From NCBI GenBank assembly GCA_019090885.1, contig JAHRVC010000202.1, positions 1 through 53,809 on the forward strand: DNA of 53,809 nt, in the 5' to 3' direction. Source of the stretch: Marinosulfonomonas sp. (GTDB taxonomy: Bacteria > Pseudomonadota > Alphaproteobacteria > Rhodobacterales > Rhodobacteraceae). Positions 32,331 to 53,809 of the stretch are shown here, piece after piece (position 1 is the first letter of the stretch; each line of letters starts with the position of its first letter). Both the position numbers and the translations under genes were made by a program. The notes beneath the pieces are model-generated. The model worked only from the letters and a program-made list of their open reading frames with translations. It searched no databases and was not told the origin of the DNA.

Positions 32331-32350
32331 TCTGAGCTGAACAAACTTAA

Positions 32351-32374
32351 GGAAGAGCAGGCGACTGCTCTTCC
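32351..32374 (+). other. intercistronic hairpin after the TAXI SBP gene
   Basis: Perfect 10-bp stem GGAAGAGCAG/CTGCTCTTCC with a GCGA tetraloop, 20 nt after the stop. A second 5-bp hairpin lies at 32380-32393. Confidence 0.55.
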
Positions 32375-32460
32375 TGACACCGCGAAAACGCGGGTCAACG
32401 ACCAACAATATTAACGAATAGTGCTGGCACAGTATGCAGCGCGGACAGGGAGCTAGTGAT

Positions 32461-37122: not shown

Positions 37123-37158
37123 GCTTTCGCTCCTACTTATTCATGTGTCAGCTTTTAT

Positions 37159-38346: not shown

Positions 38347-38367
38347 CGGATAAACCCTTTGTATTCT

Positions 38368-39555: not shown

Positions 39556-39558
39556 ACC

Positions 39559-40518
39559 TTAATCCTGTATTGAAGCGGTTGACGAATTCCAGGGAAACCC
39601 CTTTGGGGCTCCGGCTTTCGCATAGGTGCCGTGAAGGGGTTCATCAGGCAGGTTTGTCGCAATAATCTCGCGGATCGGCAGCAGTTTTTCGACGTCGATA
39701 CCGGTGTTCAACCCGGCGCCTTCAAGCAAAAATACCAGATCTTCCATCACGATATTTCCGGTCGCATTTGGCGCGAAAGGGCAGCCACCCAGCCCGGCGA
39801 GCGAGGCATCAAAACGGCGACACCCGGCCTCAAGTGCGGCATATACATTGGCAAGGCCAAGGCCGCGTGTATCGTGGAAATGCGCACCCACCATCACGTC
39901 GTCGCCAAAGTTTTCGATCACTTTGGTAAACAGTTCCTTAACCTCGCGCGGGTTGCCGTAGCCGACGGTGTCGGCAATCACCACCTCATCCACACCGGCC
40001 TTAACGAAATTTTCGACCGATTGCAGCACTGCATTATGGGGCACATGGCCTTCGAACGAACAGCCGAAAGATGTCGCAAAACCACCGGCCAATTTGAAAC
40101 GCTTGCCCTCAGGCAGGCTGTCGCGCAGCTCGACGACGCGCTTGAATTCGGCCAAAGCCTCGGCGGTTGAACGTCTGCCGTTGGATTGCGAATGCGTCTC
40201 GGATACCGAATTCATGAAATCAATCTCATGCACGCCGATCGCCTGCGCCGTCTGCGCGCCGCGCAGATTGGGGGTTAGCGCCGACACCCAAAGCCCGTCT
40301 TGTTCAAGCGCGGCCAAGGCCACATCTGGCGCATCAGAAAACTGCGGCAGCAGTTTGGGTGGCACGAAGGAACACACCTGCATGTTGGGCATGCCAGCGG
40401 CAACTTCTTCGCGAATCCAGCGAATTTTTTCGTCCGTAGGAACGAACGTCTTGACGATCTGGATGCCATCGCGCAGCCCAACTTCGCGGCATTCGACATC
40501 TATATTTTTGTTGGACAT
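39559..40518 (-). CDS. hydroxymethylglutaryl-CoA lyase family protein
   Basis: HMGL-like motifs EVGLRDGIQ, CSFVPPKLLPQF, HFHDTRGLGLANV and AGLGGCPFAP. Confidence 0.9.
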   Translation of the reverse strand: MSNKNIDVECREVGLRDGIQIVKTFVPTDEKIRWIREEVAAGMPNMQVCSFVPPKLLPQFSDAPDVALAALEQDGLWVSALTPNLRGAQTAQAIGVHEIDFMNSVSETHSQSNGRRSTAEALAEFKRVVELRDSLPEGKRFKLAGGFATSFGCSFEGHVPHNAVLQSVENFVKAGVDEVVIADTVGYGNPREVKELFTKVIENFGDDVMVGAHFHDTRGLGLANVYAALEAGCRRFDASLAGLGGCPFAPNATGNIVMEDLVFLLEGAGLNTGIDVEKLLPIREIIATNLPDEPLHGTYAKAGAPKGFPWNSSTASIQD

Positions 40519-40524
40519 GATACC

Positions 40525-41337
40525 CTATTTACCCTTGAAGGCCGGTTTGCGCTTTTCGTTAAAGGCGCGGACACCTTCCAGACGGTCCTCGGTAGGCACC
40601 AGCCGGTTATAGGCTTCGATTTCAAAGGCATAACCGTTTTTCAGGTCAACCTGCGTGGCCACATTCATCGACTTCTTGGCCTGATAAATAGCAAGCGGTG
40701 CGTTGTTGCAGATCGTGCGCGCGGTTTCCAAGACTTCTTCCATCAGCTTGTCGTCGTCACAAACCTTGTTGACCACGCCCCACTCACACGCCTGTTCGGC
40801 CGAAAATGGTTTGCCGGTCAGAATGATTTCTTTGGCGCGGCGAACACCAACTGCGCGGGGCAGGTTTTGCGTGCCCATGCCGCCGGGCATGATACCGATT
40901 TTGATCTCAGTCAGCGCAAAACGCGCGCGCCGCGCTGCATAAGCGAAATCACAGGTCACCACGGTTTCCATACCGCCGCCATAGGCAGCCCCATTCACTG
41001 CCGCAATGATCGGTATCGGGCAATCGAGTAACGCCATGCGGCACTTTTCGAACAGCGCATGCTGCTGCTGCCACTGCTCATCGGTCATGTTGTTGCGTTC
41101 TTTAAGGTCACCGCCCGCGTTGAAAATCTTTTCGCCCGCACCGGTCAGAACGATGCAGCGGATACCCTGTTGGTCGATGTAAAGGCTTGTCCACAACTCA
41201 AACAGTTCTCGGCCCATTTGCGTGTTCGTCGAGTTGCCTGCTTTCGGTCGGTCAAACGTGACGACCAGCAGGTGATCTTCGACCTCTTCGACCTTTACGG
41301 TTTCAAATGGGAATGGGGTTTTGAATTTATTTGTCAT
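40525..41337 (-). CDS. enoyl-CoA hydratase (methylglutaconyl-CoA hydratase-like, both catalytic Glu present)
   Basis: GGGMETVVTCD and FALTEIKIGIMPGGMGTQNL, comparable to the AUH/LiuC-type motif. 270 aa. Confidence 0.9.
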   Translation of the reverse strand: MTNKFKTPFPFETVKVEEVEDHLLVVTFDRPKAGNSTNTQMGRELFELWTSLYIDQQGIRCIVLTGAGEKIFNAGGDLKERNNMTDEQWQQQHALFEKCRMALLDCPIPIIAAVNGAAYGGGMETVVTCDFAYAARRARFALTEIKIGIMPGGMGTQNLPRAVGVRRAKEIILTGKPFSAEQACEWGVVNKVCDDDKLMEEVLETARTICNNAPLAIYQAKKSMNVATQVDLKNGYAFEIEAYNRLVPTEDRLEGVRAFNEKRKPAFKGK

Positions 41338-41500
41338 CGCTCTTCACTTCGCTTGTGCGGTCCAAACTATTGGCCTGATGCCGTTGCATGCGATCCAATA
41401 CGACGTAACGCCGTCCGATTGTTTTTGTGGTTCAAAAAAAGCGGCAACATGCAATTTGGGCAAAGTTATCAGCTAGAACCGGGCAAGTCTATGTGTTTTC

Positions 41501-41516
41501 GAAACGCATTCCAAAA
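41501..41516. promoter_or_regulatory. candidate regulator-binding motif GAAACGCATTCCAAAA upstream of the hydratase-lyase-ACAD operon
   Basis: 15 of 16 positions are identical to 46665-46680. It lies in the 217-nt gap between the iclR stop and the operon start. Confidence 0.4.
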
Positions 41517-41554
41517 ACGAAACTCGTCGAAATGAACGTTGCCAGCTGTTATAC

Positions 41555-42280
41555 TCAAATTACGTCAGAATATCCGAAAATCCGTGATATTCGTTTGGTG
41601 CTCGCAACCAAATGCACTGCCAGCTCTTCGCGTCGTCCTGTTATCCGGGGCTCGGGCCCGGCGATCGAAATGCAGTAGGTGCACGCGCCTTTCAGGTCGT
41701 AAATCGGGGCGGCCATGCCAGCAGCACCAACAAGACGATCCCCGGCTGAACAGGCATAACCTTGCTCACGAATTTCAGCCAGTTCGCTATCAAGTGTCAC
41801 CGGCACATTCCCATTTTTGAAAATTGCGCCTACCAAATCGTCAGACTGGAACGCCATAAAGACGCGCCCGACCGCACCTGCATCCAATGAAACAACCTCT
41901 CCAACGCGAACGATGGAGCGCAACCTTGAAGGGCTTTCGACCACATCAAGCACCACCCGTTCTGTTCCTTCCAGGATGCTCAAGGAAACTGTTTCGCCGG
42001 TTAGTTCCCCCAGCAAGCGCAATTCGGATTTGGCAGCATCGCGGATGTCGAGTGTTGAGGGAATAAGGTTGGCCAGTCGAAGCACTTTGAACGAAATACA
42101 GTAACTTTGATCCTCAAGATGATTAAGGTAACCAATTTCAACGAGTGTGTTAAGCAGCCTGAATACGGTTGATTTTGGCAGGTCAAGCTTTTGGCAAATC
42201 TCGTGCAGAGTCAGGCGCTGAGCATCCGAACTGAAGCAGTCAAAAATAGCAAATGCTCTGACAACGGATCTAATTTGCAT
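41555..42280 (-). CDS. IclR family transcriptional regulator
   Basis: N-terminal wHTH LTLHEICQKLDLPKSTVFRLLNTLVEIGYL plus an IclR-type effector domain. Confidence 0.9.
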   Translation of the reverse strand: MQIRSVVRAFAIFDCFSSDAQRLTLHEICQKLDLPKSTVFRLLNTLVEIGYLNHLEDQSYCISFKVLRLANLIPSTLDIRDAAKSELRLLGELTGETVSLSILEGTERVVLDVVESPSRLRSIVRVGEVVSLDAGAVGRVFMAFQSDDLVGAIFKNGNVPVTLDSELAEIREQGYACSAGDRLVGAAGMAAPIYDLKGACTYCISIAGPEPRITGRREELAVHLVASTKRISRIFGYSDVI

Positions 42281-42321: not shown

Positions 42322-43539
42322 TTATGAGTTTTGAAATGACACCCTTACAGCCATTGCAGCTGCGATCAACGCTGTGACACAGAGAAACGTAAAAACATAC
42401 CGGTAGTTTCCGCTCACCTGCAAGATCACTGCTCCAATGCTCGGCCCTACCCAGGCCCCCGAGAACATAAAGCCCAATGCGCCGCCGACCGTTTCTGCAA
42501 TCTTGTCGGGATCGGCCCGGCTGGCAATATTTGCCATGACGATCCCAGACCAGCCAAAGGTGGCCATTCCAAAACAACTGAGAACGCTGAAAATCATCCA
42601 ACTTGGCCATTCTGGGTTGGCGAATGAAAACACCGCAATCACGACCGCCGTGACGATCCCCATTGTCGAGACCACTACGAGTGAATTTTTCAGAAGGTCA
42701 GCGCGCCACCCCCAGAACATCCGACTGCTGGCGCCCAGAATATTTATCAGCGACAGCGCCATGCCGCCTTCAGCCAGACTAAAGCCAACCTCTTCAGCCA
42801 AAAACAGCACCAAAAATGCCAGCACCCCGACCTGAACAGCGCTGAAGCCGAACCCTACAAAACACAACATGAACAGCGACTTGTTGGAAATTATGATCCG
42901 CACACCGGCCCACGGGGCCGAAATTGGAAAACTTCGGTCCGCTAGATCATCCCAATATGGGCGCAATCCATTTATCGCGATGGTTAAGAACAATCCCAAC
43001 GCCGCGACGGCGTAAAACGCCCCCTGCCAACCCCAAAGTATCGCGATGAACGGACCAATCAGACCGGCGACAACGGCACCGAGCGCCGTGCTGGCCTGAC
43101 GGAAGGAATAAAGGAAGTTTAAACGCTCTGGCTTGCCAAACCGGGACAAAAGCACAGACGCGGCCGGGTAGGTCATTCCATAACTGCAGCCAAGAACGAT
43201 CGAACCAAAAGTAAGAACAACAAGATTGGAAGCGGTATATAAAAGGCAGCCAGCGGCGCCTACCACTAAGGCTGCCTGCAGGACTCGGCAGGGGCCGAAG
43301 CGGCCAACATATCCACCCGATATCAGCGACGAAACGCCGCCAAAACCAAACACCAAGGTCACCTGATAGCCAATGAAAGCAGCATCAACCCCAAGGGCCT
43401 GTTTGGTGGCAATTGCCAGAGCCGGAACCATGTAACCGCCGGTCGCAACCACGGCCCCCAAAAAGGTTGTCGCAATAAGAACAAACGTAATTGCTGTGTG
43501 CCATGTTCCGCGACCAGAAACATCAGAACTATTCATCAT
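42322..43539 (-). CDS. MFS transporter
   Basis: 405 aa with about 12 TM helices and an MFS-like loop GGYVGRFGPCR. Confidence 0.85.
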   Translation of the reverse strand: MMNSSDVSGRGTWHTAITFVLIATTFLGAVVATGGYMVPALAIATKQALGVDAAFIGYQVTLVFGFGGVSSLISGGYVGRFGPCRVLQAALVVGAAGCLLYTASNLVVLTFGSIVLGCSYGMTYPAASVLLSRFGKPERLNFLYSFRQASTALGAVVAGLIGPFIAILWGWQGAFYAVAALGLFLTIAINGLRPYWDDLADRSFPISAPWAGVRIIISNKSLFMLCFVGFGFSAVQVGVLAFLVLFLAEEVGFSLAEGGMALSLINILGASSRMFWGWRADLLKNSLVVVSTMGIVTAVVIAVFSFANPEWPSWMIFSVLSCFGMATFGWSGIVMANIASRADPDKIAETVGGALGFMFSGAWVGPSIGAVILQVSGNYRYVFTFLCVTALIAAAMAVRVSFQNS

Positions 43540-43637
43540 TGAACTAATTCCCAGCGGGCATCATTCAACCGAACTATTGCGGCATCCGGGCATCGCCTAA
43601 TTGCTACCCGGACACAGTGAGCTTCAGTCATGTGACC

Positions 43638-44909
43638 TCAGAATTTATAGGGCAAATACAACGCCAGATCAGGGAAAAAGTAGAGCACAACAACTGTAAA
43701 GAGCATGATTATGATAAACGGCCAGACACCTCTGGAAACTTCCCACAGGGTAGCGTTTCCGACCGCCTGCACCACAAATAAGTTGAGCCCAACCGGCGGC
43801 GTAATCAGCGCGCATTCGACCATAATCACAAATACAATTCCGAACCAGACCGGGTCGATACCCATGGTTTGTAGTGTCGGGTAAAGCACCGGCACCATGA
43901 TCAGAAGCATGCTGAGGGACTCGATAAACAAACCCATGACTAACAGAATCGCGCACACGACAATTAGGAACATTCCGGCTTCAGTGAAATTATTTGTCAC
44001 TAGTTGGGTCACGTCCTGGGGAATTCTGTAAAGTGTGATCGCCTTAGAGAATATCTTGGCACCAGCAATTATCAGGAAGATCGTAACTGTCGTCTGCATC
44101 GCCTCGGTAGCCGCCTCGACTATCTGAGCGACCGTTATCGAACGTCTGCCGATGGTGATTATCAACGCAATGACAAAACCTACGCCTGCCGCCTCGGTCG
44201 GCGTGAACACACCAAAGTAGATGCCCAACACGATAACAGAAGCCAAAAACAAGACCGGAAACGCGCGAATAGATGCAGTCCAGCGCTCGGACCAGCTTGC
44301 GCGGGGCAGAACTTCAAGTTGGCCTTTGTTGCGTGCGTAAAATATCGAATAGACCGAGAAAAGGAATGCCAAGAATATTCCGGGGCCAACGCCTGCCATA
44401 AACAGGCTGATGATGCTTTCCTCGGTAATGACGCCGTAGATGATTAGAATGATTGATGGCGGGATCAGAATTCCCAGCGTTCCGCCAGCAGCCAAAAGAC
44501 CCAGAACAAAACTTTTCTCATATCCGCGTTTGGTCATCTCGGGGATTGCCACGGTTCCGACCGTCGCCGCCGTTGCAACCGACGATCCGGAAATTGCCGA
44601 GAACAGCGCACACGACATAATTGTTGCCACGCCCAAACCGCCCGGCCAGTGACCGACCCAGCTTTGCGCGGCTGCAAACAGATCTTTGCCGACCCCGCCC
44701 TTCAGAAGGATATTTGACATCAAAAGAAACAGGGGAACTGCGAGCAGAATGAAGTTATCAATACTCGAATACAAACCCTGCGGGATCATCACAGGATTGA
44801 AACCCTCCAGAAGTAACAGGAACAGCCCCAGGCCGCCCATCACAAAAGCGATTGGGATGCCCAGAACAAGGAAAAATAGTAGTGCGCCGAGGATTAGAAA
44901 TGCGGTCAA
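43638..44909 (-). CDS. dctM: TRAP transporter large permease
   Basis: 423 aa with DctM-like sequence. It follows dctQ with an 11-nt gap. Confidence 0.92.
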   Translation of the reverse strand: MTAFLILGALLFFLVLGIPIAFVMGGLGLFLLLLEGFNPVMIPQGLYSSIDNFILLAVPLFLLMSNILLKGGVGKDLFAAAQSWVGHWPGGLGVATIMSCALFSAISGSSVATAATVGTVAIPEMTKRGYEKSFVLGLLAAGGTLGILIPPSIILIIYGVITEESIISLFMAGVGPGIFLAFLFSVYSIFYARNKGQLEVLPRASWSERWTASIRAFPVLFLASVIVLGIYFGVFTPTEAAGVGFVIALIITIGRRSITVAQIVEAATEAMQTTVTIFLIIAGAKIFSKAITLYRIPQDVTQLVTNNFTEAGMFLIVVCAILLVMGLFIESLSMLLIMVPVLYPTLQTMGIDPVWFGIVFVIMVECALITPPVGLNLFVVQAVGNATLWEVSRGVWPFIIIMLFTVVVLYFFPDLALYLPYKF

Positions 44910-44920
44910 CTTATTGTTCC

Positions 44921-45430
44921 TTAGATAGACAAATCTGGGGTGTGTTCGCCAAGGTCGCCTTCGTTGCGGATCTGGCGCCAGATTTGTGCCAGCGCCTGAA
45001 GGATCAGGATGAAAAACCCGATAGGAATTGCGGATTCGGTCCAGAATTTGGGAACTTGGTTCATCGTCGCCGTGGCGCGCCCAACTTCGATGCTTTCAAG
45101 GACCACCTCGATGCCAAGCCAAAATGCAAAACAGCAGAATACCAGAATCCAGACCAGCGACAGGATTTCCAGATACCTGCGACCAGTGGCCCCGATCATT
45201 TCAGTCAAGACCGTAATTCGGATTAATCCGTTGCGGCGCAGAACATAGCCCATTGCAAGGTAGGTCGCCCATAATTGCAGCAACCGCGCGCCTTCTTCGG
45301 CCCATGTTGTGGGGGCAAAAAACACATAGCGTGCGACCACCTCATACGAGATCATCAAACCGATAATGAAAAACAAACCAGTCGCAATCTGGCCGAATTT
45401 CTCGGAAATACCGTCAATGAATCGAAGCAT
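44921..45430 (-). CDS. dctQ: TRAP transporter small permease
   Basis: 169 aa with 4 TM helices, positioned between dctP and dctM. Confidence 0.85.
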   Translation of the reverse strand: MLRFIDGISEKFGQIATGLFFIIGLMISYEVVARYVFFAPTTWAEEGARLLQLWATYLAMGYVLRRNGLIRITVLTEMIGATGRRYLEILSLVWILVFCCFAFWLGIEVVLESIEVGRATATMNQVPKFWTESAIPIGFFILILQALAQIWRQIRNEGDLGEHTPDLSI

Positions 45431-45466
45431 CAGACACCAGAAGATTATTTGAATTTACTAGATGGA

Positions 45467-45497
45467 AGTCTGGCGGATCGATATGATCCGCCAGACT
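45467..45497 (-). other. intercistronic hairpin between dctP and dctQ
   Basis: Perfect 12-13-bp stem (A)GTCTGGCGGATC/GATCCGCCAGAC(T) with a 5-nt loop, about 25 nt after the dctP stop. Confidence 0.55.
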
Positions 45498-45521
45498 GAT
45501 GTTATATTCTCGAAAGCTGAA

Positions 45522-46526
45522 CTACTTAGCGATTGCTGCAATAACTTTCTGACCAAGCTCACCAGAGCTGGCAAGATACGCGTCAACCACTGGCTGCGCG
45601 GCGGCTTTCCATGCAGCACGGTTTTCATCGGTCATCTCGATTACTTCTTTACCATATGTTAGCGTATCCGCTGCGGCATCGGTTTCGACCTGTGCGATCG
45701 AAGCGCGCAGATTTGCCTCTGAGATTTGACCACATTCGGTCATTGTAGCCTGCTCATCGCCAGACAATGTGCCCCAGACTTTGTCGTTGATCAGCATCAG
45801 GAATTCGATTTTCGCGTGCTCAGAACGGGTCACAACGTCCATGACTTCATAAAGTTTGCGCGAAATAACCGATCCGATGCCGGTCATGCCAGCGTCAACT
45901 GTTCCACGCTGATATGCGAGAAACTGTTCTGAACCAGACATCAACGTCGGTGCACCGCCAAGAGCAGTCACAAAATCACCAAGTGTTTTTCCGAACACCC
46001 GGACTTTCATGCCTTCAACGTCTGCGGGTACGCGAATTGGGTTGTCCTTCTTGGACAGGAACACGGCTGTGCCATAGTCCATCCAATAAATCGGACGCGC
46101 GCCAGTTTCAGTCAGCGCATCATCAAGCAATGTGCGCAATTCAGCACCCGGTGCCAGCATTCCGACAATCTTATCACGTGAACCCATAGCAAATGGCACA
46201 TAAAGAATCTCGATCGCAGGAATGGTTCCGGCGAAACGTGCCGTTGTGGTCATGCCCATATCAATAGCGCCGGAAGAAACCGCCTGCGGAACTTCTTTGT
46301 CACGATAAAGCTGGGCCGAGTCATAAACTTCGATAGTGATGTCTGACTTTTCACCGACACATTGCGCAAACTCAACAGCATTCAATGTTGCAAAGTTTTT
46401 AGCTGGCAGCTGTGTAGTAAACCGCAATGTGCGTTCCGCAGCCGATGCAGACACACCCATTGTAAGTGCAAGTGCGCAGGCGCCGATTGAAGTCAGCAGA
46501 CCCTTATTCAATTTCGTTGTGGACAT
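45522..46526 (-). CDS. dctP: TRAP transporter substrate-binding protein (DctP family)
   Basis: The start is set at MSTTKLNKGLL (signal peptide, GGGAGGA RBS). The ORF-track extension to 46685 is AT-rich leader. Confidence 0.9.
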   Translation of the reverse strand: MSTTKLNKGLLTSIGACALALTMGVSASAAERTLRFTTQLPAKNFATLNAVEFAQCVGEKSDITIEVYDSAQLYRDKEVPQAVSSGAIDMGMTTTARFAGTIPAIEILYVPFAMGSRDKIVGMLAPGAELRTLLDDALTETGARPIYWMDYGTAVFLSKKDNPIRVPADVEGMKVRVFGKTLGDFVTALGGAPTLMSGSEQFLAYQRGTVDAGMTGIGSVISRKLYEVMDVVTRSEHAKIEFLMLINDKVWGTLSGDEQATMTECGQISEANLRASIAQVETDAAADTLTYGKEVIEMTDENRAAWKAAAQPVVDAYLASSGELGQKVIAAIAK

Positions 46527-46663
46527 TCGTATTCCTCCCAAAAATTTCGTTGTACGGTGGGGAATGTTGGCATTGGAACAATTGTATTCGAATCCCAATG
46601 CGCCACCCCTCCCAAGTTGACACCCATCCAAATAGCATGAACAAACAAACGCGTCCACAATTA

Positions 46664-46680
46664 TGAAACGCATTTCAAAA
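46664..46680. promoter_or_regulatory. candidate IclR-type operator TGAAACGCATTTCA(AAA) in the dctP/tauD-like divergent promoter region
   Basis: Inverted repeat TGAAA-N4-TTTCA. The 16-mer GAAACGCATTTCAAAA recurs at 41501-41516 with one mismatch. Confidence 0.4.
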
Positions 46681-46883
46681 TTCAATTATTCGAACACGGA
46701 TGTGCGATATTCACGCCGCTGAACAGCCCGACCCAATACCAGTTTGACTATAAAAACCGAATGGCAGAACCAAGGTATGCCGGGTGAGCCCGCGTCAATT
46801 GGGCCAAGCCAAAACTGGCTGAATCGTGCTAGCGTTGGAATTAGCGTCGCGTTACGTCAAAAAACCGAAGGAAGGTCTGAGAA

Positions 46884-47723
46884 ATGGCAAATGATACATT
46901 CACGATAGCACCGATGTCCGGGGCAATCGGCGCGGAAATCCTTGGGATAGATTTGTCAGCGCCAATCAGCGACCAGACAATCGCCGAAATCCGCAAAGCG
47001 CAGAATGACCATCTAGTTATATTTTTCCGCGATCAGGATATCACCCCCGCACAGCATCTGGATTTCGCTCAACGATTTGGTGAGGTAGTTGAATACCCGC
47101 TGGTCAAAGGGCTTGATGATTACCCACAGATCGCACCTGTCATAAAGCTAAAGCACGAGACCGTTAATTTCGGCGGCGTCTGGCATTCGGACACGGCCTA
47201 TTTGCCTGCCCCGCCCAAAAGCACAATGCTTGTTGCGCGCGAGCTTCCGCCATTCGGCGGCGACACGTTATTTTCGAATATGTATATGGCCTATGAGACA
47301 TTGTCCGATGGCATGAAATCCCTGTTGGGCGGCTTGCTAGCGATCAATTCAACCCAGAAAGCGGATGCCTCTGCTACTAGAGAGGACCGGTTGAAGACCG
47401 GGGCAAAAGAGGGTTCGGATGATGAGATTGCTTCCGCCCATCCGGTTGTCCGCACCCATCCCGAAACGGGACGGAAGCTCCTTTATGTCAACGCCGGGCA
47501 CACGACCCGGTTTGAAAATATGACAGAAGAAGAAAGTGCGCCAATTCTCGACTACCTGTTCGCACATCAAATTCGTCCGGAATTCACCTGCCGATTCCGC
47601 TGGCAACCCGGCTCGATAGCATTTTGGGATAACCGTGCAGCACAGCACAACCCGATCAACGACTATCACGGACACCAAAGGGTTATGCACAGAATCACAC
47701 TTGCGGGCGAAGTTCCCAGCTAG
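46884..47723 (+). CDS. taurine dioxygenase-like Fe(II)/2-oxoglutarate dioxygenase (TauD/TfdA family)
   Basis: HxD facial-triad motif WHSDTAY, GGDTLF, HPVVRTHP and WDNRAAQH...MHR. It looks collinear with E. coli TauD as I remember that sequence. Confidence 0.88.
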   Translation: MANDTFTIAPMSGAIGAEILGIDLSAPISDQTIAEIRKAQNDHLVIFFRDQDITPAQHLDFAQRFGEVVEYPLVKGLDDYPQIAPVIKLKHETVNFGGVWHSDTAYLPAPPKSTMLVARELPPFGGDTLFSNMYMAYETLSDGMKSLLGGLLAINSTQKADASATREDRLKTGAKEGSDDEIASAHPVVRTHPETGRKLLYVNAGHTTRFENMTEEESAPILDYLFAHQIRPEFTCRFRWQPGSIAFWDNRAAQHNPINDYHGHQRVMHRITLAGEVPS

Positions 47724-47737
47724 GCGACTTTTGGCTT

Positions 47738-49912
47738 TTACCTGTCGATCTTCAGGCGTGCGCGCATGTCTGCATCGACGGGTTGGGGCTGGCCAATCAC
47801 ATCGCCGATCGCCAATTTGAGGTTGGAAAACACCATTGGCGAACCGATCAACGGCCAATGCAGGCCGTCCGGTCCATCGTGCATTTGCATAAGCGACCGC
47901 GCCTTGGTTTGCGGGTGATCCAGCATATCTGCAATTGATTGAACAGGAACCGCAATCAGCCCGGCAATTGTGAGCTGCTCAATCGCCTGTACTCTAGTCA
48001 AATCTTTCCACTGATCCTGTGGAATTTTCGCTCGTAGATCATCGGGCGCGCCAGCAACGCAAACATACCCGTCTGTGCATTCCAACATCTGGTTTTGACG
48101 CACCGCGTCTGGTTCATCATTCCAAAGCGAGGCCGTCATCCACACGGCGATATCCTGCATGGACAGATCCAGATAATCACCTTTCCCGGTCCGCTCTCGG
48201 TTTCGCAAGGCAGCGAGCACAAAGAACAGGCCGACTTCACCGCCCATAAAATCACAGGCAGAAACGCCGGCTTTCAACGGGGTGCCATCCCAGGAATTCG
48301 CGTTCATCAAACCAGCCATCGCCTGAACCACCGTGTCAAAGGCCGGTCGTTCTTCATAGGCTGAATCCGCGCCAAACCCGGAAATTGCGCAATAGATCAG
48401 GCGGGGGTTGATCGACGACATTTTCTGCCAGTCAAATCCACGCCGCGCCAGTGATCCGGGTTTCAGGTTTTCCAGAAATATGTCGGCGCTTTCCAGTAAT
48501 TTCGTGAAAATTTCCTGACCTTCATCGCTTTGAAGATCGACGGCGATGCTGGTTTTCCCAGCATTACTCATGACAAAAAAGTAGCTCAAATCACCATTGT
48601 GCGGCAACCATTCACGCGCGGCGTCGCCTGTGGGTGGCTCAATCTTGATGACCTCAGCACCCAGTGTCGCCAGATGTTTGGTCGACAGCGGCGCGGTCGT
48701 GTATTGACCGATCTCAAGGACGCGAATGCCTTGCAACGGCAGGGCCAAATCGCCGCCGCCCTGCCCGTCCGCTTTAAAGTCGGGTTTTTTGGCAATAAAA
48801 TCCTTGGCTAAGGCACATGCTTCGTCGCGATCAGGAATGTGGTCCGGCACGCGCCCGTCGCCGGTGACCGCTTTTAAAATTGCACCGGGAATACGCATGT
48901 CGCCGGTTTCGGAATGATCCGGAACATGGCGGATCATCGAGCGGTGGCGCAGGTTTGGATCCTGATCGCCGTCCTCCATTCGCAGGATCGGCCCGCAGGC
49001 AATATCTGCGGCCATCAGGATCTCGACGGCCTGCGTAACACTGTGACGACCGACCCAGTCTTGCACAATCTGGTTCACCTCATCCCGGTTTTCCATCCGG
49101 CCCGGCAGGTCGGCATATTTGGGATCGTCGCCAAACTGCGGCACACCCATCACATTGCAAAGCCGTTGCCACGGCGGATTGGAGGCCGAGCACAAAAGAA
49201 GCCAGCCGTCGGACGCCTGAAACGCATTCCAAGGCGCGCACATTGCATGTTGGTTGCCCACCCGCATCGGGGCTTTGCCGCCGAAATGGGCTGGCAGGAA
49301 GGTGGCTAGGGAATTAACCCCAGCGTCATAGAGCGCCATGTCGATGGTCTGGTTGTGGCCAGTCTGGTCGCGCGCGCTCAAGGCCGCAACGATCGCAGCG
49401 GCCCCATAGGTCCCGGTCGAATATTCAAGCAATGGAACCTGCAGCGTCACCGGCGGCCCGTCTGCAAAACCCGTGGTGTGGGCAACCCCGGACATCGCCT
49501 GAACCAGCGCGTCATCATAGGGTTTCCCAGCCAAAGGGCCGTCTTTGCCAAAAGCCGTAAAATCGCAAACTATAGCGGCTTCCTGACAGTCATCGACAAT
49601 GCTCTGCCATGCAGCCGGATCAACATCGCCCGACACCAAAACCACATCGGCAGTTTGGATCAGGCGGGTGAGCATTTCCACGTCAGACTTGTCGTCGGGG
49701 TCCGCAAGGATGGCGTGCTTGCCGGATGCATAAAGCTTGCGGTTTTCCCATTTGTTGCTGGTAGCGGTTTTGCGCGGCTCAACAAAGAACACATCCGCGC
49801 CCGCCTCTGCCAACAAGGATCCGCAGACGCCCACTGAAATTCGGCTGCCGATCTCGACCACACTAATGGCGGCCAGATATTCGGTTGCGGGGCGTGTGTT
49901 GATCTGGCTCAT
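47738..49912 (-). CDS. fused double-module family-III (CaiB/BaiF) CoA-transferase
   Basis: 724 aa. The C-terminal module has the canonical GIRVLEIGQYTTAPLSTKHLATLGAEVIKIEPPTGD. The N-terminal module has a degenerate version (ISVVEIGSRISVGVCGSLLAEAGADVFFVEP). Confidence 0.85.
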   Translation of the reverse strand: MSQINTRPATEYLAAISVVEIGSRISVGVCGSLLAEAGADVFFVEPRKTATSNKWENRKLYASGKHAILADPDDKSDVEMLTRLIQTADVVLVSGDVDPAAWQSIVDDCQEAAIVCDFTAFGKDGPLAGKPYDDALVQAMSGVAHTTGFADGPPVTLQVPLLEYSTGTYGAAAIVAALSARDQTGHNQTIDMALYDAGVNSLATFLPAHFGGKAPMRVGNQHAMCAPWNAFQASDGWLLLCSASNPPWQRLCNVMGVPQFGDDPKYADLPGRMENRDEVNQIVQDWVGRHSVTQAVEILMAADIACGPILRMEDGDQDPNLRHRSMIRHVPDHSETGDMRIPGAILKAVTGDGRVPDHIPDRDEACALAKDFIAKKPDFKADGQGGGDLALPLQGIRVLEIGQYTTAPLSTKHLATLGAEVIKIEPPTGDAAREWLPHNGDLSYFFVMSNAGKTSIAVDLQSDEGQEIFTKLLESADIFLENLKPGSLARRGFDWQKMSSINPRLIYCAISGFGADSAYEERPAFDTVVQAMAGLMNANSWDGTPLKAGVSACDFMGGEVGLFFVLAALRNRERTGKGDYLDLSMQDIAVWMTASLWNDEPDAVRQNQMLECTDGYVCVAGAPDDLRAKIPQDQWKDLTRVQAIEQLTIAGLIAVPVQSIADMLDHPQTKARSLMQMHDGPDGLHWPLIGSPMVFSNLKLAIGDVIGQPQPVDADMRARLKIDR

Positions 49913-49924
49913 TCAAATGCTCAT

Positions 49925-51955
49925 TCAGTTTGCGTCGGCTGCGCGCGCACCCGTCAGTTCCAGATTATCGGCACCAATTTCGGGAACGATACAGGGTTTC
50001 AATGTTGGCGTCCGGCTAAAAGAATAGGGCGCCGATATGATGGCATTGCCGCCCCTGTTTTCCTTTTCAAAGATCAACAGACCGTTGCGCTTGGCGACGT
50101 TCAGATCGTAAACCTCATCCAGCTCCAGCATTCTTGTCGCCCGGATATCTTTGCCGGACAGCTTTTCAACAACCACGTTGCCGGGTTGCGTTTTGGCCCA
50201 GCTCAGGTCCAGATTAGCGGCCGCACACAAGGCAACAACCCAACCATCTGCGGTTTGCACGATTGTATTGGGCGGTAATACCTGATCCCCGTCGGGCCAG
50301 CTAAGTTCACCCATCCACGCGACCGTGTCATACATCGCGATATCCAGAACGACGCCCGCGCCGGTCCGGCGAACCTGACGTAGTGCTGCGATAATTTCCA
50401 ACGGCGCTATATGAGCAGCGGCAAGATCGGCGATCGAAAAACCGCCCTTGATAGGGCCGCTGTCCGAGGCGATGCGGGAAATAACCCCTGCCTCGGCCTG
50501 AATGACAGTATCCAAAGCGGGCCGGTCAGACCCATTGAAACCGTATCCCGAAATGCCACAATAGATCAGGCGGGGATTGATTTTTAACAGGTCACCCGCG
50601 CCCAGCCCCATCCGATCCAGCGCACCCGCCTTTAGATTGAACAGCAGGGCGTCGGCGGTTTTGACCAGTTCCAGAAACGCCGCTTTGCCTTGCTCAGACC
50701 GCAGATCCAGAACAACCGATTTTTTACCAGCGTTGTAGTTGGCAAAGTAGCAGCTGACGCCATCCACCAGCGGTTGCCACAGACGAGAATCTTCGCCGCC
50801 AGTGCCCTCGACCTTTATCATTTCGGCGCCAAGGTTGCCCAAGAAACGCCCAGCGAGGGGCCCGGCTGTATATGGCCCTACCTCAAGAATTTTGACACCG
50901 GCACAAGGCTGGGTTGGCGTTTCAAAACGGGGCTGCGGTTGCGGGGCCTTGGCGGCTGCCCCGGCGCTGCGACGGCACGGAATTGCTTTGCCCATTTGCG
51001 CCACGGACGTCGTTTCGGCCACCGTGCCACAGGGAATACCGCGTTCGCGTAGCTTGGCCAGCGCATCGTCGGTCGTTTCGGTCTTAGTCCAGTCACCAAC
51101 CAGTTCATCGACCTTCTGCACATTGGCAATGCGCGACGCCGCCAGTGCGTAGTCGGGATCATCGGCTAGTTCCGGGCGGCCCATGATGGTTGTCAGGTCC
51201 AGCCAGTTCCCATTGCTCGTGGTGCAAATAATAACGCGGCCGTCACGCGTCTGATAGGCATTCCAAGGGGAAACCAAAGGGTGCCTGCACCCGTTGCGAA
51301 AACCACGGGTTTTGCCAGACAAAACCTTACCAAGAAATGTTCCGGTCAGGGTAAAGCAGGTATCAAACACCGCCATATCCAGCAGTTGTCCACACCCAGA
51401 GGTTTCTTGCACTCGCAGGGCCGCAACGCTTGCCGTGGCGGCATTAACGCCCGTGAAAACCTCTAGGATCGGCAGATCAACGATGGCCGGGATGCCATTG
51501 ATATCGCCGGTCGTGGCCAGCAAGCCGCTGATTGCCTGCATTTCAACCTCGCCCGGATCAACAAGCGGTGGGTCGGCGACGTCCAGCCCAAATGGCGACA
51601 TGGCGCAAACGATCAGGCGGTCGGTATCAAGACCCGTCAACATCGCATCGGCCTGCGCCTTGCCATCAACCGCAATCGGCGGGGTCACGATGACGATCGC
51701 AGCCGTATCGACCAGCGCCGCCCATTGCCCGGCAAAATCATCAGACGTGCCGTCCAGCTCTAACTGCTCGCCTTTGACCTCGGTAAAGGGATGATCGCGC
51801 CACTTGGTTGGTTCGTTTGGCAATGGATCATCGGATACAACCACACGAATGACTTGGGCGCCCAGATCCTCCAACCGGCCAGCACAAACGCTACCGGCCA
51901 GACGGCCGACACGTTCGATGACTTTCACACCGGCAAGTGATCCTTCTTGCGCCAA
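49925..51955 (-). CDS. fused double-module family-III (CaiB/BaiF) CoA-transferase, paralogue
   Basis: 676 aa. The C-terminal module has GVKILEVGPYTAGPLAGRFLGNLGAEMIKVEGTGGED. The N-terminal module is degenerate (VKVIERVGRLAGSVCAGRLEDLGAQVIRVV). It is 12 nt upstream of the paralogue. Confidence 0.85.
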   Translation of the reverse strand: MAQEGSLAGVKVIERVGRLAGSVCAGRLEDLGAQVIRVVVSDDPLPNEPTKWRDHPFTEVKGEQLELDGTSDDFAGQWAALVDTAAIVIVTPPIAVDGKAQADAMLTGLDTDRLIVCAMSPFGLDVADPPLVDPGEVEMQAISGLLATTGDINGIPAIVDLPILEVFTGVNAATASVAALRVQETSGCGQLLDMAVFDTCFTLTGTFLGKVLSGKTRGFRNGCRHPLVSPWNAYQTRDGRVIICTTSNGNWLDLTTIMGRPELADDPDYALAASRIANVQKVDELVGDWTKTETTDDALAKLRERGIPCGTVAETTSVAQMGKAIPCRRSAGAAAKAPQPQPRFETPTQPCAGVKILEVGPYTAGPLAGRFLGNLGAEMIKVEGTGGEDSRLWQPLVDGVSCYFANYNAGKKSVVLDLRSEQGKAAFLELVKTADALLFNLKAGALDRMGLGAGDLLKINPRLIYCGISGYGFNGSDRPALDTVIQAEAGVISRIASDSGPIKGGFSIADLAAAHIAPLEIIAALRQVRRTGAGVVLDIAMYDTVAWMGELSWPDGDQVLPPNTIVQTADGWVVALCAAANLDLSWAKTQPGNVVVEKLSGKDIRATRMLELDEVYDLNVAKRNGLLIFEKENRGGNAIISAPYSFSRTPTLKPCIVPEIGADNLELTGARAADAN

Positions 51956-51975: not shown

Positions 51976-53130
51976 CTAGCGAAACGCGTCGATACCAGCC
52001 AGTTCACGTCCCTGAATTAGGGCCAGAATACCGTTCGCGCCATCCGGAATTGGCAGCATGCGAACATCGCGATAAAGCTGCTCCAGCCCGGTTTCTTCGG
52101 CCACACCCATCGCACCATGCACCTGCATGGCTTCGGAAATCGCGGTCTCGCAGGCCGTTGTCGCATAGCGCTTGGCCATCGCCGAGGTGCCATTTGCCCG
52201 CTCACCGTGATCCATTGCATTCAGTGCGGAATAACAAAGCAGGCGGCTGGTGACGATTGCCGTTTCAATGTCGGCCAGTTGCTTTTGCACCAGCTGATGG
52301 CCGCCGATAAATTTACCGAACTGTTTGCGCACACCGGCATATTCGACCGCCGCCTCAAACGCTTTTTGCGCCAGATGAACGGCCGCAAGCCCAACCAACG
52401 GCCGGTTGCCGTTCCATGTGACGGTCAACAGACGTGCGGCATCGCCCGATGCGCCAAGCGAGTTGATCTTTGGCACCCGGCAATTGTCGTAAAGTATCTC
52501 ACCCAGATGCCCCTGACGCAGACCGAGACATGGGATTTCGCGCGTTTGGACACCAGCAGTTTCGCGTTCAACAACGATGCGACGCAGTTTGGAATTGCCG
52601 CGCTCGTCCTTGCCTTCAGAACAGGTCGTGTTGAAAATATCGGCGATCCCGGCATTGGTGATCCAGATCTTAGCGCCATTGATCACCAGTTCATCACCGT
52701 CTTCTTTAACGGTCGTCCGCACCTCACGCGGGTTTGAGCCGACGTTCGGCTCGGTCGTTCCGGTGCAACAAATTTTCGTGCCAGCCAGAATGCCCGGCAG
52801 GAACATTTCTTTTTGCTCAGGTGAGCTTTCGGCAAAGATGCGCGCGGCGGTGCATTCCTGTGCCAAAATAGACATCGAAATCACCGGCGGCAGAATTTCG
52901 AACATAAAACCATAGTCGAGCATTTTCAGCCCGGCACCACCGTCTTTTTCAGGCAGGCGCGGCGCCATCAGGCCCATCTGCGCCAGCGATTTATAAATCT
53001 CCAGCATCGCCTCTTTGGGCAATGGTTTGGATGCATCATGTTTGGCAAGAATTGGGTCTACGTCCCGCTCGACCATCGTTTTGGTCGCGTCGCGAATAAG
53101 TTCTTGCTCAGAAGTGAATTTGAAATCCAT
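51976..53130 (-). CDS. acyl-CoA dehydrogenase family protein (Asp at the catalytic-base position)
   Basis: 384 aa with TEPNVGSN, GAKIWITN and LYRDVRMLPIPDGANGIL. Confidence 0.9.
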   Translation of the reverse strand: MDFKFTSEQELIRDATKTMVERDVDPILAKHDASKPLPKEAMLEIYKSLAQMGLMAPRLPEKDGGAGLKMLDYGFMFEILPPVISMSILAQECTAARIFAESSPEQKEMFLPGILAGTKICCTGTTEPNVGSNPREVRTTVKEDGDELVINGAKIWITNAGIADIFNTTCSEGKDERGNSKLRRIVVERETAGVQTREIPCLGLRQGHLGEILYDNCRVPKINSLGASGDAARLLTVTWNGNRPLVGLAAVHLAQKAFEAAVEYAGVRKQFGKFIGGHQLVQKQLADIETAIVTSRLLCYSALNAMDHGERANGTSAMAKRYATTACETAISEAMQVHGAMGVAEETGLEQLYRDVRMLPIPDGANGILALIQGRELAGIDAFR

Positions 53131-53143
53131 TACGCTTTTGTCC

Positions 53144-53809
53144 TCATGGCATTACAAAGCCGCCGTTAACGCTAAAGACCTGTCCGGTCACCCAGGATGC
53201 CTGGTCGCTGGCGAGATAAGTGATCATGTTGGCATGATCTTGTGGCAGTCCGATACGGCGCGCCGGATACATTCGCAGAACCTTTTTGGTCCGCGCAGCG
53301 TAGCGTTCTTCGCCAATCGCTTCTTTTGTCTGAATTTCTCGCGCCTGACGCAGCTCGGTATCGGTTGCACCCGGCGAAACAACGTTCAGCGTCACACCGT
53401 CCGGGCCAACTTCTTGGGCGACAGATTTGATCAGGGCGATCACGCCACCTTTGGCGGCCGCATAGTAAGACAGACGGGCCTGCCCAACACGCGCAGAATC
53501 CGACGCCATGCAGATGATGCGGCCAAATTTCCGCTCGACCATTCCCGGCAGAACTGTGTGCATCACGTTCAGCGGGCCGTAAAGGCACACATCAATGATG
53601 CGTTTCCAATCTTTCGGGCCGGAATCAAGGAACAGTTTGTCGTCAAGCAATGCGGCCGAAACGATCACAATATCCGGCGCACCAAGATGATCGGTGACAG
53701 ACTGAATCATCGCCTCGACGCTTTCCAACGAACTTATGTCCGCCTGCACGCCAAGTTTCTGACTATCATCGCCGGCAAGACGGTCGGCAGCGGCAAGCGC
53801 GGCCTCGCC
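53144..53809 (-). CDS. short-chain dehydrogenase/reductase (SDR), 5'-truncated by the window edge
   Basis: YxxxK active site (YYAAAKGG) and NVVSPG. The reading frame stays open upstream of the GTG at 53749 to the window end, and the Rossmann N-terminus is missing. Confidence 0.88.
   Translation of the reverse strand, partial: GEAALAAADRLAGDDSQKLGVQADISSLESVEAMIQSVTDHLGAPDIVIVSAALLDDKLFLDSGPKDWKRIIDVCLYGPLNVMHTVLPGMVERKFGRIICMASDSARVGQARLSYYAAAKGGVIALIKSVAQEVGPDGVTLNVVSPGATDTELRQAREIQTKEAIGEERYAARTKKVLRMYPARRIGLPQDHANMITYLASDQASWVTGQVFSVNGGFVMP

What the first reader, a model, noticed from the sequence alone, without database searches (positions are those of the whole stretch)
47738..51955. 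Two tandem genes each encode a fused double family-III CoA-transferase with the same Glu/Asp active-site asymmetry
Characterised family-III CoA-transferases (formyl-CoA transferase Frc, CaiB, BaiF) are single-module proteins of about 400 aa. They form interlocked homodimers and use a catalytic Asp (Asp169 in Frc). Here two adjacent ORFs of 724 aa and 676 aa, 12 nt apart, each contain two such modules. In both proteins the C-terminal module keeps the canonical N-terminal signature and has an Asp about 155 residues downstream: SACDFMGG (D554, codon about 48251-48253) and FSIADLAAA (D510, about 50426-50428). In both proteins the N-terminal module has a degenerate signature and carries Glu at the aligned position: LLEYSTG (E163, about 49424-49426) and ILEVFTG (E165, about 51461-51463). 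That Glu is still followed by the conserved xAAL...TG...DxA/SxxD stretch. Because both paralogues repeat the asymmetry, it looks selected rather than decayed. It suggests a covalently linked pseudo-heterodimer with one canonical and one altered or regulatory site. Since the native fold is interlocked, a single-chain version is also structurally interesting.
Basis: partly seen in the sequence, partly recalled or inferred. Interest (0 to 1): 0.75.

Follow-up and report, generated by a model that had tools for sequence, protein, structure and literature searches.

The report
Two fused double CoA-transferase genes
Two neighbouring genes each encode a single-chain "double" class III CoA-transferase that most likely has one working active site built from both halves; the sequence observation is correct, but this fused enzyme type is already known (DddD, PtmU4), so these are new, uncharacterised members of a known class.

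Summary
Observation confirmed in full. ORFs 47738..49912(-) (724 aa, A) and 49925..51955(-) (676 aa, B) are 12 nt apart. Each has two CoA_transf_3 modules. E163/E165 align with the catalytic Asp column in the N-modules, and D554/D510 are the canonical Asp in the C-modules. The asymmetry is inherited rather than arising twice: A and B are 31% identical and colinear, so the fusion predates their duplication. It is still under selection, with Glu/Asp in 121/121 close relatives. Across the wider two-module superfamily the C-site Asp is nearly universal, while the N-site varies (E, D, A, S, T, R...), which suggests one catalytic Asp per chain. The canonical large domain (C-module) and the canonical small-domain RxGNxH loop (N-module) lie in different modules, as expected for one composite active site in an intramolecular pseudo-dimer. 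AlphaFold2 models are compact (pTM 0.95 for both). [quoted passage not shown] The genes sit in a conserved SDR-ACAD-B-A cassette linked to β-oxidation and HMG-CoA-lyase-like genes. The substrate is unknown. Verdict: a new member of a known kind, of moderate interest. No structure of any two-module enzyme was found in the PDB.

The parts
47738..49912 (-). Gene A: two-module class III CoA-transferase, 724 aa
   Evidence: ORF; Pfam PF02515 3e-148, 3 stretches; full-length homologues of 615-792 aa; AF2 pLDDT 93.3, pTM 0.95
48878..49876 (-). A, N-module (residues ~13-345): diverged large domain plus well-preserved small domain
   Evidence: Pfam on fragments: 119 bits (profile 1-200) and 101 bits (profile 209-361); aligns to 4ed9 residues 12-341
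49424..49426 (-). A, E163 codon: Glu at the catalytic-Asp-equivalent position of the N-module
   Evidence: Glu in 121/121 close homologues; third residue of helix 161-184 in the model
49247..49264 (-). A, R217-V-G-N-Q-H222: GNxH-type loop of the N-module small domain, the predicted partner of D554 in the composite active site
   Evidence: R217 and H222 invariant in 121/121 and 98/98, G219/N220 nearly so; in YfdE the His233 of the GNxH loop comes from the partner subunit, opposite Asp173 (PMC3720670)
48737..48877 (-). A, inter-module linker (residues 346-392), poorly conserved
   Evidence: only 2% of positions are at least 80% conserved; lower pLDDT around residues 380-390
47741..48736 (-). A, C-module (residues 393-724): canonical large domain, reduced small domain without a GNxH loop
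   Evidence: Pfam 244 bits for residues 393-597 against 25 bits for the remainder, with profile positions ~203-291 unmatched; about 15 residues where the N-module has a ~35-residue loop
48251..48253 (-). A, D554 codon: canonical catalytic Asp
   Evidence: Asp in 121/121 and 96/96
49925..51955 (-). Gene B: paralogous two-module class III CoA-transferase, 676 aa (or 667 aa from the GTG at 51928)
   Evidence: ORF; Pfam 1e-110; 31% identical and colinear with A; AF2 pLDDT 94.3, pTM 0.95; homologues of 666-701 aa
51461..51463 (-). B, E165 codon: Glu at the N-module site
   Evidence: Glu in 15/15 B-like genes next to A-like genes
51281..51298 (-). B, R220-N-G-C-R-H225: small-domain loop of the N-module (variant of RxGNxH)
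   Evidence: R220 invariant and H225 at least 90% conserved in alignment A2
50426..50428 (-). B, D510 codon: canonical catalytic Asp of the C-module
   Evidence: invariant in A2
51976..53130 (-). Acyl-CoA dehydrogenase, directly upstream in the same operon
   Evidence: Pfam ACAD N/M/C domains; orthologues at 51-97% identity lie next to A-like genes in many genomes; 68% identity in L086
53144..53809 (-). Short-chain dehydrogenase/reductase, first gene of the cassette; its start is cut off by the window end
   Evidence: Pfam adh_short_C2 5e-44; homologues are 261 aa; conserved synteny
46884..47723 (+). TauD/TfdA-family Fe(II)/2-oxoglutarate dioxygenase, convergent with A; adjacency conserved in Rhodobacteraceae relatives
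   Evidence: Pfam TauD 1.9e-65; NCBIfam taurine dioxygenase 262 bits, below the 313-bit cutoff; 74-94% identity in L005, L006, L008
43638..46685 (-). TRAP transporter genes DctP, DctQ and DctM; a plausible importer of the carboxylate substrate (inferred)
   Evidence: Pfam DctP and DctM, DctQ
36340..42280 (-). IclR regulator, enoyl-CoA hydratase, HMG-CoA-lyase-like protein, two ACADs and a second enoyl-CoA hydratase; contiguous with the SDR-ACAD-CoA-transferase unit in a Pseudorhizobium plasmid
   Evidence: Pfam; orthologues at 38-71% identity in L086, directly next to the two-module gene

Best explanation
A and B are paralogous members of the known class of two-domain (tandem) type III CoA-transferases. 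Each chain most likely folds into an intramolecular copy of the class III dimer and has one canonical active site built from both halves. The C-module large (Rossmann-type) domain binds the acyl-CoA and carries the nucleophilic Asp (D554 in A, D510 in B). That Asp forms the acyl-aspartyl anhydride and aspartyl-CoA thioester intermediates typical of the family. The N-module small domain contributes the RxGNxH substrate loop (H222 in A, H225 in B) that faces this Asp. The reciprocal site, made of the N-module large domain with Glu and the reduced C-module small domain, has lost the ENxxPG and PPxGD..R motifs and has no partner GNxH loop. It is most likely not a CoA-transfer centre. Its Glu is probably a structural or ancillary residue conserved in this clade. 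The two genes are co-transcribed with an SDR and an acyl-CoA dehydrogenase. They probably activate an imported carboxylic acid (identity unknown, possibly a dicarboxylate) to its CoA thioester, using a CoA donor such as succinyl- or acetyl-CoA, ahead of a β-oxidation-like pathway with an HMG-CoA-lyase-type step. Shown here: the architecture, the residue identities, the conservation and the synteny. Inferred: interlocking, a single active site, the direction of transfer and the substrate.
For: Each protein has two PF02515 modules. The Glu and Asp positions were verified against solved structures. The C-site Asp is invariant and nearly universal among 150 divergent representatives, whereas the N-site is E, D or non-acidic. 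Four proteins show the opposite polarity, which points to one Asp per chain. Divergence is complementary: C-large scores 244/209 bits against N-large 119/61, and N-small scores 101/76 bits against the C remainder at 25/21. The RxGNxH...PW loop of the N-module small domain is invariant, and the C-module lacks it. [quoted passage not shown] AF2 gives pLDDT 93-94 and pTM 0.95 for both proteins. Foldseek matches only single-chain class III enzymes, with TM-scores up to 0.84 relative to the target over about 385 columns. PtmU4 is a monomer, and its D430A/E/N mutants are 125-400-fold less active. The SDR-ACAD-B-A synteny and the link to the ECH/HMGL/ACAD genes are conserved. The operon has gaps of 13, 20 and 12 nt.
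Against: Within the A/B clade the Glu is very strongly conserved (121/121; 90/96 with the other 6 being Asp), and the N-module large domain keeps many canonical motifs under purifying selection (R24, LGA, GKxS, QAxSG..TG). That is more than a purely vestigial site would need. DddD, the best-known relative, carries out a second (lyase) reaction, so a second chemistry cannot be excluded. No biochemical data exist for this subfamily, and the substrate is unknown.
Confidence: 0.7

Rival explanations
1. Both sites are catalytic. The Glu pocket of the N-module is a second, non-canonical active site, acting for example as a general base for a lyase, hydratase or isomerase step on the CoA thioester made at the Asp site. 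That would resemble the CoA-transferase/lyase DddD and would make A and B bifunctional.
For: Glu is invariant in 121/121 close relatives, and the position is always acidic in 96/96 genome homologues. The N-module large domain keeps many motifs under purifying selection. DddD performs two reactions (PMC8163506).
Against: The same position is A/S/T/R/L/N/Q/H/P in many other two-module proteins. The pocket lacks a partner GNxH loop and the ENxxPG motif. Asp-to-Glu at the catalytic position cripples PtmU4. The operon already encodes separate ACAD, SDR and hydratase enzymes.
Confidence: 0.15
2. A and B work only as a hetero-complex (A·B), analogous to the heteromeric class III enzymes BbsEF or SmtAB, rather than as two independent enzymes.
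For: B-A adjacency with very short spacing is conserved in 16 of 80 species-level loci across Rhodobacteraceae, Rhodospirillales and Hyphomicrobiales, even though A and B have diverged to 35-85% identity from their counterparts there. The 12-nt spacer suggests translational coupling.
Against: Most genomes carry an A-like gene with the orthologous ACAD and/or SDR but no B. This includes a close relative (L008, 63% identity) and the Pseudorhizobium plasmid. Each chain already models as a self-contained pseudo-dimer with pTM 0.95. PtmU4 is monomeric.
Confidence: 0.15
3. The N-module is a regulatory (allosteric) CoA- or acyl-CoA-binding module that tunes the C-module site.
For: Rossmann-type elements are retained in the N-module large domain (R24, G38-A39, K65), and the Glu is conserved in the clade.
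Against: There is no direct evidence. The pantetheine- and phosphate-binding ENxxPG and GD..R motifs are replaced (consensus). The N-module small domain appears to be needed for catalysis itself, not for regulation.
Confidence: 0.08
4. The double-length ORFs are an artefact: a frameshift or assembly fusion of adjacent single-module genes.
For: None beyond the unusual length.
Against: Hundreds of full-length colinear homologues occur in independent genomes and metagenomes. The linker is in frame, and both whole-chain models are confident.
Confidence: 0.01

Closest known systems
[quoted passage not shown]
   Same: Two tandem class III modules in one chain. The conserved catalytic Asp is in the C-terminal module (D430). 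The linker is poorly conserved and the Frc-type glycine loop is absent. PtmU4 is monomeric in solution. An OCR copy of the paper's alignment suggests an acidic residue (E in PtmU4, D in YtkF) at the N-module site; this is tentative.
   Different: PtmU4 is shorter (about 65 kDa) with a truncated N-domain of about 280 aa that lacks the Rossmann part. It transfers sulfur to an acyl-CoA to make a thiocarboxylic acid, and it is paired with an acyl-CoA synthetase and sulfur-carrier proteins. None of these partner genes flank A or B, whose immediate neighbours are an ACAD, an SDR, a TauD-family gene and TRAP transporter genes. The sequences could not be compared directly.
DddD, the DMSP CoA-transferase/lyase (Todd 2007; Alcolombri 2014, cited in PMC6006322 and PMC8163506)
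   Same: A fused double CaiB-like class III CoA-transferase from marine Proteobacteria. It uses an acyl-CoA donor (acetyl-CoA) and acts on a small carboxylate.
   Different: DddD is larger: the Endozoicomonas homologue has two full-length CaiB domains at 1-416 and 439-821 (PMC7174347). It lies in dddT/B/C/R clusters with a BCCT transporter, and it is an outgroup to the other two-domain enzymes in the published tree. A and B are 724 and 676 aa with a reduced C-module small domain and a different gene context. The 800+ aa two-module proteins sampled here have a variable N-site. No confirmed DddD sequence was available for a direct alignment.
YfdE/ACOCT, SUGCT, 4ed9 and Brucella 'formyl-CoA transferase' 10uh: single-module class III homodimers
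   Same: These are the best sequence and fold matches for both modules. The C-module large domain shares their motifs (PPxGD..R, NxGKxS, ENxxPG, SGFG, QAMSG, xADxxGG). The N-module small domain shares the GNxH loop of the YfdE clade.
   Different: These enzymes are chains of about 375-456 aa that form interlocked homodimers with two identical active sites. Here the two halves are fused and have diverged in complementary ways, leaving one canonical site.
BbsEF (9fn0/9fol) and SmtAB: heteromeric class III CoA-transferases
   Same: They are built from two different class III polypeptides, so they are the unfused analogue of a pseudo-heterodimer. Both BbsE and BbsF match the models by fold.
   Different: The subunits are separate genes and are not fused. 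Whether only one BbsEF site is active was not checked here; only the PDB titles were seen.

Membership tests
Class III (family III) CoA-transferase, Pfam PF02515 | Significant match to the CoA_transf_3 profile | tested here: met
   A 3e-148, B 1e-110; each half matches on its own
Class III (family III) CoA-transferase, Pfam PF02515 | Catalytic Asp at the start of the central helix (Frc D169, YfdE D173) | tested here: met
   Met in the C-modules (D554, D510). Not met in the N-modules, which carry Glu (E163, E165).
Class III (family III) CoA-transferase, Pfam PF02515 | Fold with a large Rossmann-type domain plus a small domain | tested here: met
   AF2 models with pLDDT 93-94. Foldseek TM-scores relative to the target are up to 0.84 against YfdE, SUGCT, 4ed9, Rv3272, Frc, CaiB and BbsEF.
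Class III (family III) CoA-transferase, Pfam PF02515 | Interlocked (threaded) dimer, here expected between the two modules of one chain | not testable with these tools
   Model coordinates are not exposed. The support is indirect: pTM 0.95 for the whole chain, and both modules keep the C-terminal segment that returns to the large domain (profile positions 292-361 matched).
Class III (family III) CoA-transferase, Pfam PF02515 | CoA transfer through an aspartyl anhydride and thioester | not testable with these tools
   Requires an enzyme assay
Two-domain (tandem) type III CoA-transferases (PMC6006322) | [quoted passage not shown] | tested here: met
   in linker 346-392 only 2% of positions are at least 80% conserved
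Two-domain (tandem) type III CoA-transferases (PMC6006322) | Conserved catalytic Asp in the C-terminal module | tested here: met
   D554/D510 invariant
Two-domain (tandem) type III CoA-transferases (PMC6006322) | Monomeric in solution (shown for PtmU4) | not testable with these tools
   Needs SEC-MALS of the purified protein. The models are consistent with a self-contained chain.
DddD (DMSP CoA-transferase/lyase) | About 820-840 aa with two full-length CaiB domains, in a ddd cluster (BCCT transporter DddT, DddB, DddC, LysR-type DddR) | tested here: not met
   A and B are 724 and 676 aa with a reduced C-module small domain. Their immediate neighbours are an ACAD, an SDR, a TauD-family gene, TRAP and MFS transporters and an IclR regulator.
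PtmU4-type thioacid cassette | Adjacent acyl-CoA synthetase (PtmA3 homologue) and a truncated N-domain | tested here: not met
   No adenylate-forming ligase among the flanking genes between 35512 and 53809 that were scanned. The N-module is full length with its Rossmann part.
YfdE/ACOCT-like GNxH clade of class III enzymes | GNxH loop in the small domain in place of the Frc glycine-rich loop | tested here: met
   A has RVGNQH (217-222) and the family consensus is RxGNRH. B has RNGCRH with the His conserved. The loop is present only in the N-modules.

The most novel reading that the evidence does not exclude
In this 660-750 aa subfamily the strictly conserved Glu pocket of the N-module is a second functional site with its own chemistry or ligand. 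It might act as a general base in a lyase- or isomerase-type step, or serve as a dedicated binding site for the free-acid partner. A and B, kept as a pair, would then run two linked CoA transfers as a substrate-product CoA shuttle in an unrecognised marine carboxylate or sulfonate catabolic pathway.
Probability: 0.15. Interest if true: 0.6.

Novelty: new member of a known kind. Interest (0 to 1): 0.35.

Why it matters
The fused class is known, but only two members (DddD and PtmU4) have been characterised, and those two are atypical. No two-module chain was found in the PDB by sequence or by fold. The A/B-type subfamily is large: 833 representatives at the 50%-identity cluster level match the N-module at E ≤ 1e-30, and 398 relatives were found among species-representative genomes. 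It is annotated only as "CoA transferase". This analysis gives a simple, testable rule for these proteins: one catalytic Asp per chain, paired with the GNxH loop of the other module. That should help annotation and mutant design. It also offers a natural single-chain version of an interlocked dimer for folding studies. The conserved SDR-ACAD-CoA-transferase cassette marks an uncharacterised catabolic pathway in marine Rhodobacteraceae and soil Proteobacteria.

Tried and rejected
1. A direct comparison with DddD and PtmU4 sequences was not possible. The primary DddD paper (PMID 25140443) is not held. Only an OCR copy of the PtmU4 alignment was readable, and I treat it as tentative.

2. P0182 (831 aa) was examined as a possible DddD. 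Its gene context is not a DMSP locus, so it was rejected.

4. The plasmid tblastn search mostly returned single-module genes that match both halves of the query, so it was of little use for counting fused forms. It did yield the annotated Pseudorhizobium locus.

5. Literature searches for D169E data on Frc, for BbsEF asymmetry, and for PF02515 or fused family III enzymes found nothing usable.

6. The promoter and terminator scan gave no more matches than shuffled sequence.

7. The idea that the Glu is a hallmark of all two-domain enzymes was rejected.

8. The idea that the double-length ORFs are an assembly or frameshift artefact was rejected.

Full report
OBSERVATION. A is 47738..49912 on the minus strand (ATG start, 724 aa). 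B is 49925..51955 on the minus strand (TTG start, 676 aa). They are separated by 12 nt. All four residues and their codon coordinates are correct: E163 (49424-49426) and D554 (48251-48253) in A, and E165 (51461-51463) and D510 (50426-50428) in B. Pfam CoA_transf_3 matches A at 3e-148 in three stretches and B at 1e-110 in two stretches. NCBIfam gives only sub-threshold matches to single-module equivalogs such as succinate-glutarate, succinyl-CoA:mesaconate and CoA:oxalate transferases. HMMER alignments to solved class III enzymes put E163 and E165 in the catalytic Asp column, and D554 and D510 in the same column for the C-modules. The start of B is ambiguous: either the TTG at 51955, which has a G-rich stretch 7-13 nt upstream, or the GTG at 51928 that a gene caller chose.

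IS THE ASYMMETRY SELECTED? A and B are 31% identical and colinear over their full length. They are therefore paralogues of an ancestor that was already fused, and the shared pattern is inherited rather than arising twice. Selection shows up in the wider family. In 121 sequences (A, B and 119 homologues down to 41% identity) the N-site is Glu and the C-site is Asp in every case. In two-module genes taken from one-genome-per-species contigs, A-like proteins have E in 75 and D in 6, B-like proteins have E in 15 of 15, and the C-site is Asp in all 96. An exhaustive search with the N-module alone found 833 representatives (50%-identity clusters) at E ≤ 1e-30, and nearly all of the best 150 are two-module proteins of 650-850 aa. 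In that more divergent set the C-site Asp stays nearly universal, but the N-site is E, D, or a non-acidic residue (A, S, T, R, L, N, Q, H, P). Four proteins show the opposite polarity, with Asp in the N-module and E, C or S in the C-module. The alignment register was checked by eye against the QAxxG..TG..PP..G.P..X..AAL..R motif. The general rule is one catalytic Asp per chain. Glu is the conserved state in the 660-750 aa A/B-type subfamily only.

ANATOMY. I scored each half-module against Pfam. In A, the N-module large domain gives 119 bits, the N-module small domain 101 bits, the C-module large domain 244 bits, and the rest of the C-module 25 bits, with profile positions ~203-291 unmatched. 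In B the values are 61, 76, 209 and 21 bits. The C-module large domain carries all the canonical motifs (PPxGD..R, NxGKxS, ENxxPG, SGFG, QAMSG, xADxxGG; consensus). In the N-module large domain, ENxxPG is replaced by SSDxD and the PPxGD..R motif is gone. It still retains R24, LGA, GKxS and QAxSG..TG under strong conservation. The N-module small domain has an invariant R217-x-G-N-x-H222...P227-W228 loop. The C-module has only about 15 residues where that ~35-residue loop would be. The linker (residues 346-392) is almost unconserved.

HOW IT MOST LIKELY WORKS. Published structures show that a class III active site is composite. [quoted passage not shown] In YfdE, the catalytic Asp173 and the His233 of the GNxH loop come from different subunits (PMC3720670). 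Mapped onto A and B, the two most canonical parts combine: the C-module large domain with its Asp, and the N-module small domain with its GNxH loop. Together they would make one complete YfdE-like site. The reciprocal site, formed by the N-module large domain with Glu and the reduced C-module small domain, lacks both the partner loop and the pantetheine/phosphate-binding motifs. AlphaFold2 models of A (pLDDT 93.3, pTM 0.95) and B (pLDDT 94.3, pTM 0.95) are single compact bodies. E163 and D554 each sit at the third residue of a long central helix. Foldseek finds only single-chain class III enzymes, each covering about half of the model, with TM-scores relative to the target up to 0.84. No two-module chain turned up in the PDB by sequence or by fold. 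I could not test interlocking directly because coordinates are not exposed, so it remains an inference. That inference rests on the high pTM, on both modules keeping the C-terminal segment that returns to the large domain, and on the published finding that PtmU4 is monomeric.

[quoted passage not shown] It cited DddD as the only member characterised before that study (Todd 2007; Alcolombri 2014). It also characterised PtmU4 and showed that the conserved Asp lies in the C-terminal domain: the D430A, D430E and D430N mutants are 125-400-fold less active. DddD uses acetyl-CoA to form DMSP-CoA and then cleaves it (PMC8163506). The Endozoicomonas DddD homologue has two full-length CaiB domains, at 1-416 and 439-821 (PMC7174347). 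A and B are neither DddD, by size, C-module anatomy and gene context, nor PtmU4-type, since they have a full-length N-module and no synthetase or sulfur-carrier neighbours. They belong to the large uncharacterised remainder of the class, which databases annotate only as "CoA transferase" or "CaiB-like". None of the papers I could read mentions the N-site Glu or the composite-site logic. I could not read the primary DddD paper.

CONTEXT. The closest genome is a Marinosulfonomonas MAG in the Rhodobacteraceae (85% identity), and the family spans Alpha- and Betaproteobacteria. The cassette SDR-ACAD-B-A is conserved in 16 of 80 species-level loci, often with a divergently transcribed single-module CoA-transferase upstream. 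Roughly 30 further loci have an A-like gene with the orthologous ACAD and/or SDR but no B. In Roseovarius-like contigs the cassette is flanked by transposase genes. In a Pseudorhizobium flavum plasmid, SDR-ACAD-two-module transferase is directly followed by IclR, an enoyl-CoA hydratase, an HMG-CoA lyase, two ACADs and another hydratase. These are orthologous at 38-71% identity to window genes 36340..42280. In the window, the two parts are separated by a TauD-family dioxygenase, a DctPQM TRAP transporter and an MFS transporter. The gaps between SDR, ACAD, B and A are 13, 20 and 12 nt, and promoter and terminator matches do not exceed the shuffle expectation, so the four genes are probably one operon. 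This fits a CoA-transferase that activates an imported carboxylate for a β-oxidation-like pathway ending in an HMG-CoA-lyase-type cleavage. The substrate is unknown. The TauD neighbour, which is conserved in Rhodobacteraceae relatives, and a TauE/SafE gene 12 kb away hint at a sulfonated compound, but I did not test this.

RIVALS. A second catalytic role for the Glu pocket cannot be excluded, because the Glu and much of the N-module large domain are strongly conserved within the clade. It is disfavoured by the non-acidic substitutions elsewhere in the superfamily, by the missing partner loop, and by the poor performance of Glu at the catalytic position in PtmU4. An obligate A·B complex is possible, given the conserved adjacency. 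It is not required, since many genomes have only the A type and each chain models as self-contained. An assembly artefact is excluded.

VERDICT. These genes are new, uncharacterised members of a known class. The value added here is the one-Asp-per-chain, composite-site rule, the absence of any solved two-module structure in the PDB, and a conserved catabolic cassette of unknown substrate. Interest is 0.35.

Noticed in passing
window 49907..49927 (minus strand): A 9-nt direct repeat, TGAATGAGC, covers the stop codon of B and the start codon of A (49927..49919 and 49915..49907). The 12-nt spacer therefore reads as a mini-ORF, ATG AGC ATT TGA. This may be a trace of translational coupling or of a small duplication.
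   Followed up: no
window 36340..42280 and 42322..47723; L086 1..18028: The IclR-ECH-HMG-CoA-lyase-ACAD-ACAD-ECH genes of the window are orthologous (38-71% identity) to genes that sit directly next to the SDR-ACAD-two-module transferase unit in a Pseudorhizobium flavum plasmid. In the window, the TauD, TRAP (DctPQM) and MFS genes lie between the two parts, as if added to or inserted into a conserved catabolic cluster.
   Followed up: partly
window 46884..47723 (+) and 35512..36264 (-): A TauD/TfdA-family dioxygenase lies convergent with gene A, and this adjacency is conserved in the Rhodobacteraceae relatives L005, L006 and L008 (74-94% identity). It scores 262 bits on the NCBIfam taurine dioxygenase model, below the 313-bit cutoff. 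A TauE/SafE sulfite-exporter-family gene lies 12 kb away. Together these hint that the pathway substrate may be sulfonated.
   Followed up: no
L001 10486..15386 and 145..696 (same in L002): In Roseovarius-like contigs the SDR-ACAD-B-A cassette is flanked by Tn3-family, IS66-family and Transposase_20 genes plus a resolvase, which suggests that the cassette is mobile.
   Followed up: no
proteins P0296, P0306, P0359, P0373: Some ~780-820 aa two-module proteins have the opposite polarity: Asp at the N-module site and E, C or S at the C-module site. Either module can therefore be the catalytic one in this superfamily.
   Followed up: partly
proteins P0271, P0278, P0286, P0314, P0321 and other short hits: There are short proteins (270-445 aa) that resemble the N-module and carry the Glu. 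They may be fragments from contig ends, or genuine free-standing Glu-type subunits, which would be an unfused form of the pseudo-heterodimer.
   Followed up: no
window 51928..51955: The start of gene B is ambiguous. The longest ORF begins at the TTG at 51955, which has GGGGGGA 7-13 nt upstream. A public gene call for the identical protein starts at the GTG at 51928 (667 aa, P0121).
   Followed up: partly
window 53144..53809: The SDR gene at the head of the cassette is cut by the window end, since homologues are 261 aa. The single-module CoA-transferase and MmgE/PrpD genes that lie divergently upstream in relatives (L001, L003, L005, L006) would fall beyond the window.
   Followed up: partly
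window 31362..35070 (+): There is a TAXI-type TRAP system: an NMT1_3 solute-binding protein (31362..32330) and a fused DctM/DUF3394 permease of 878 aa (32434..35070). It is separate from the DctPQM system next to the finding.
   Followed up: no
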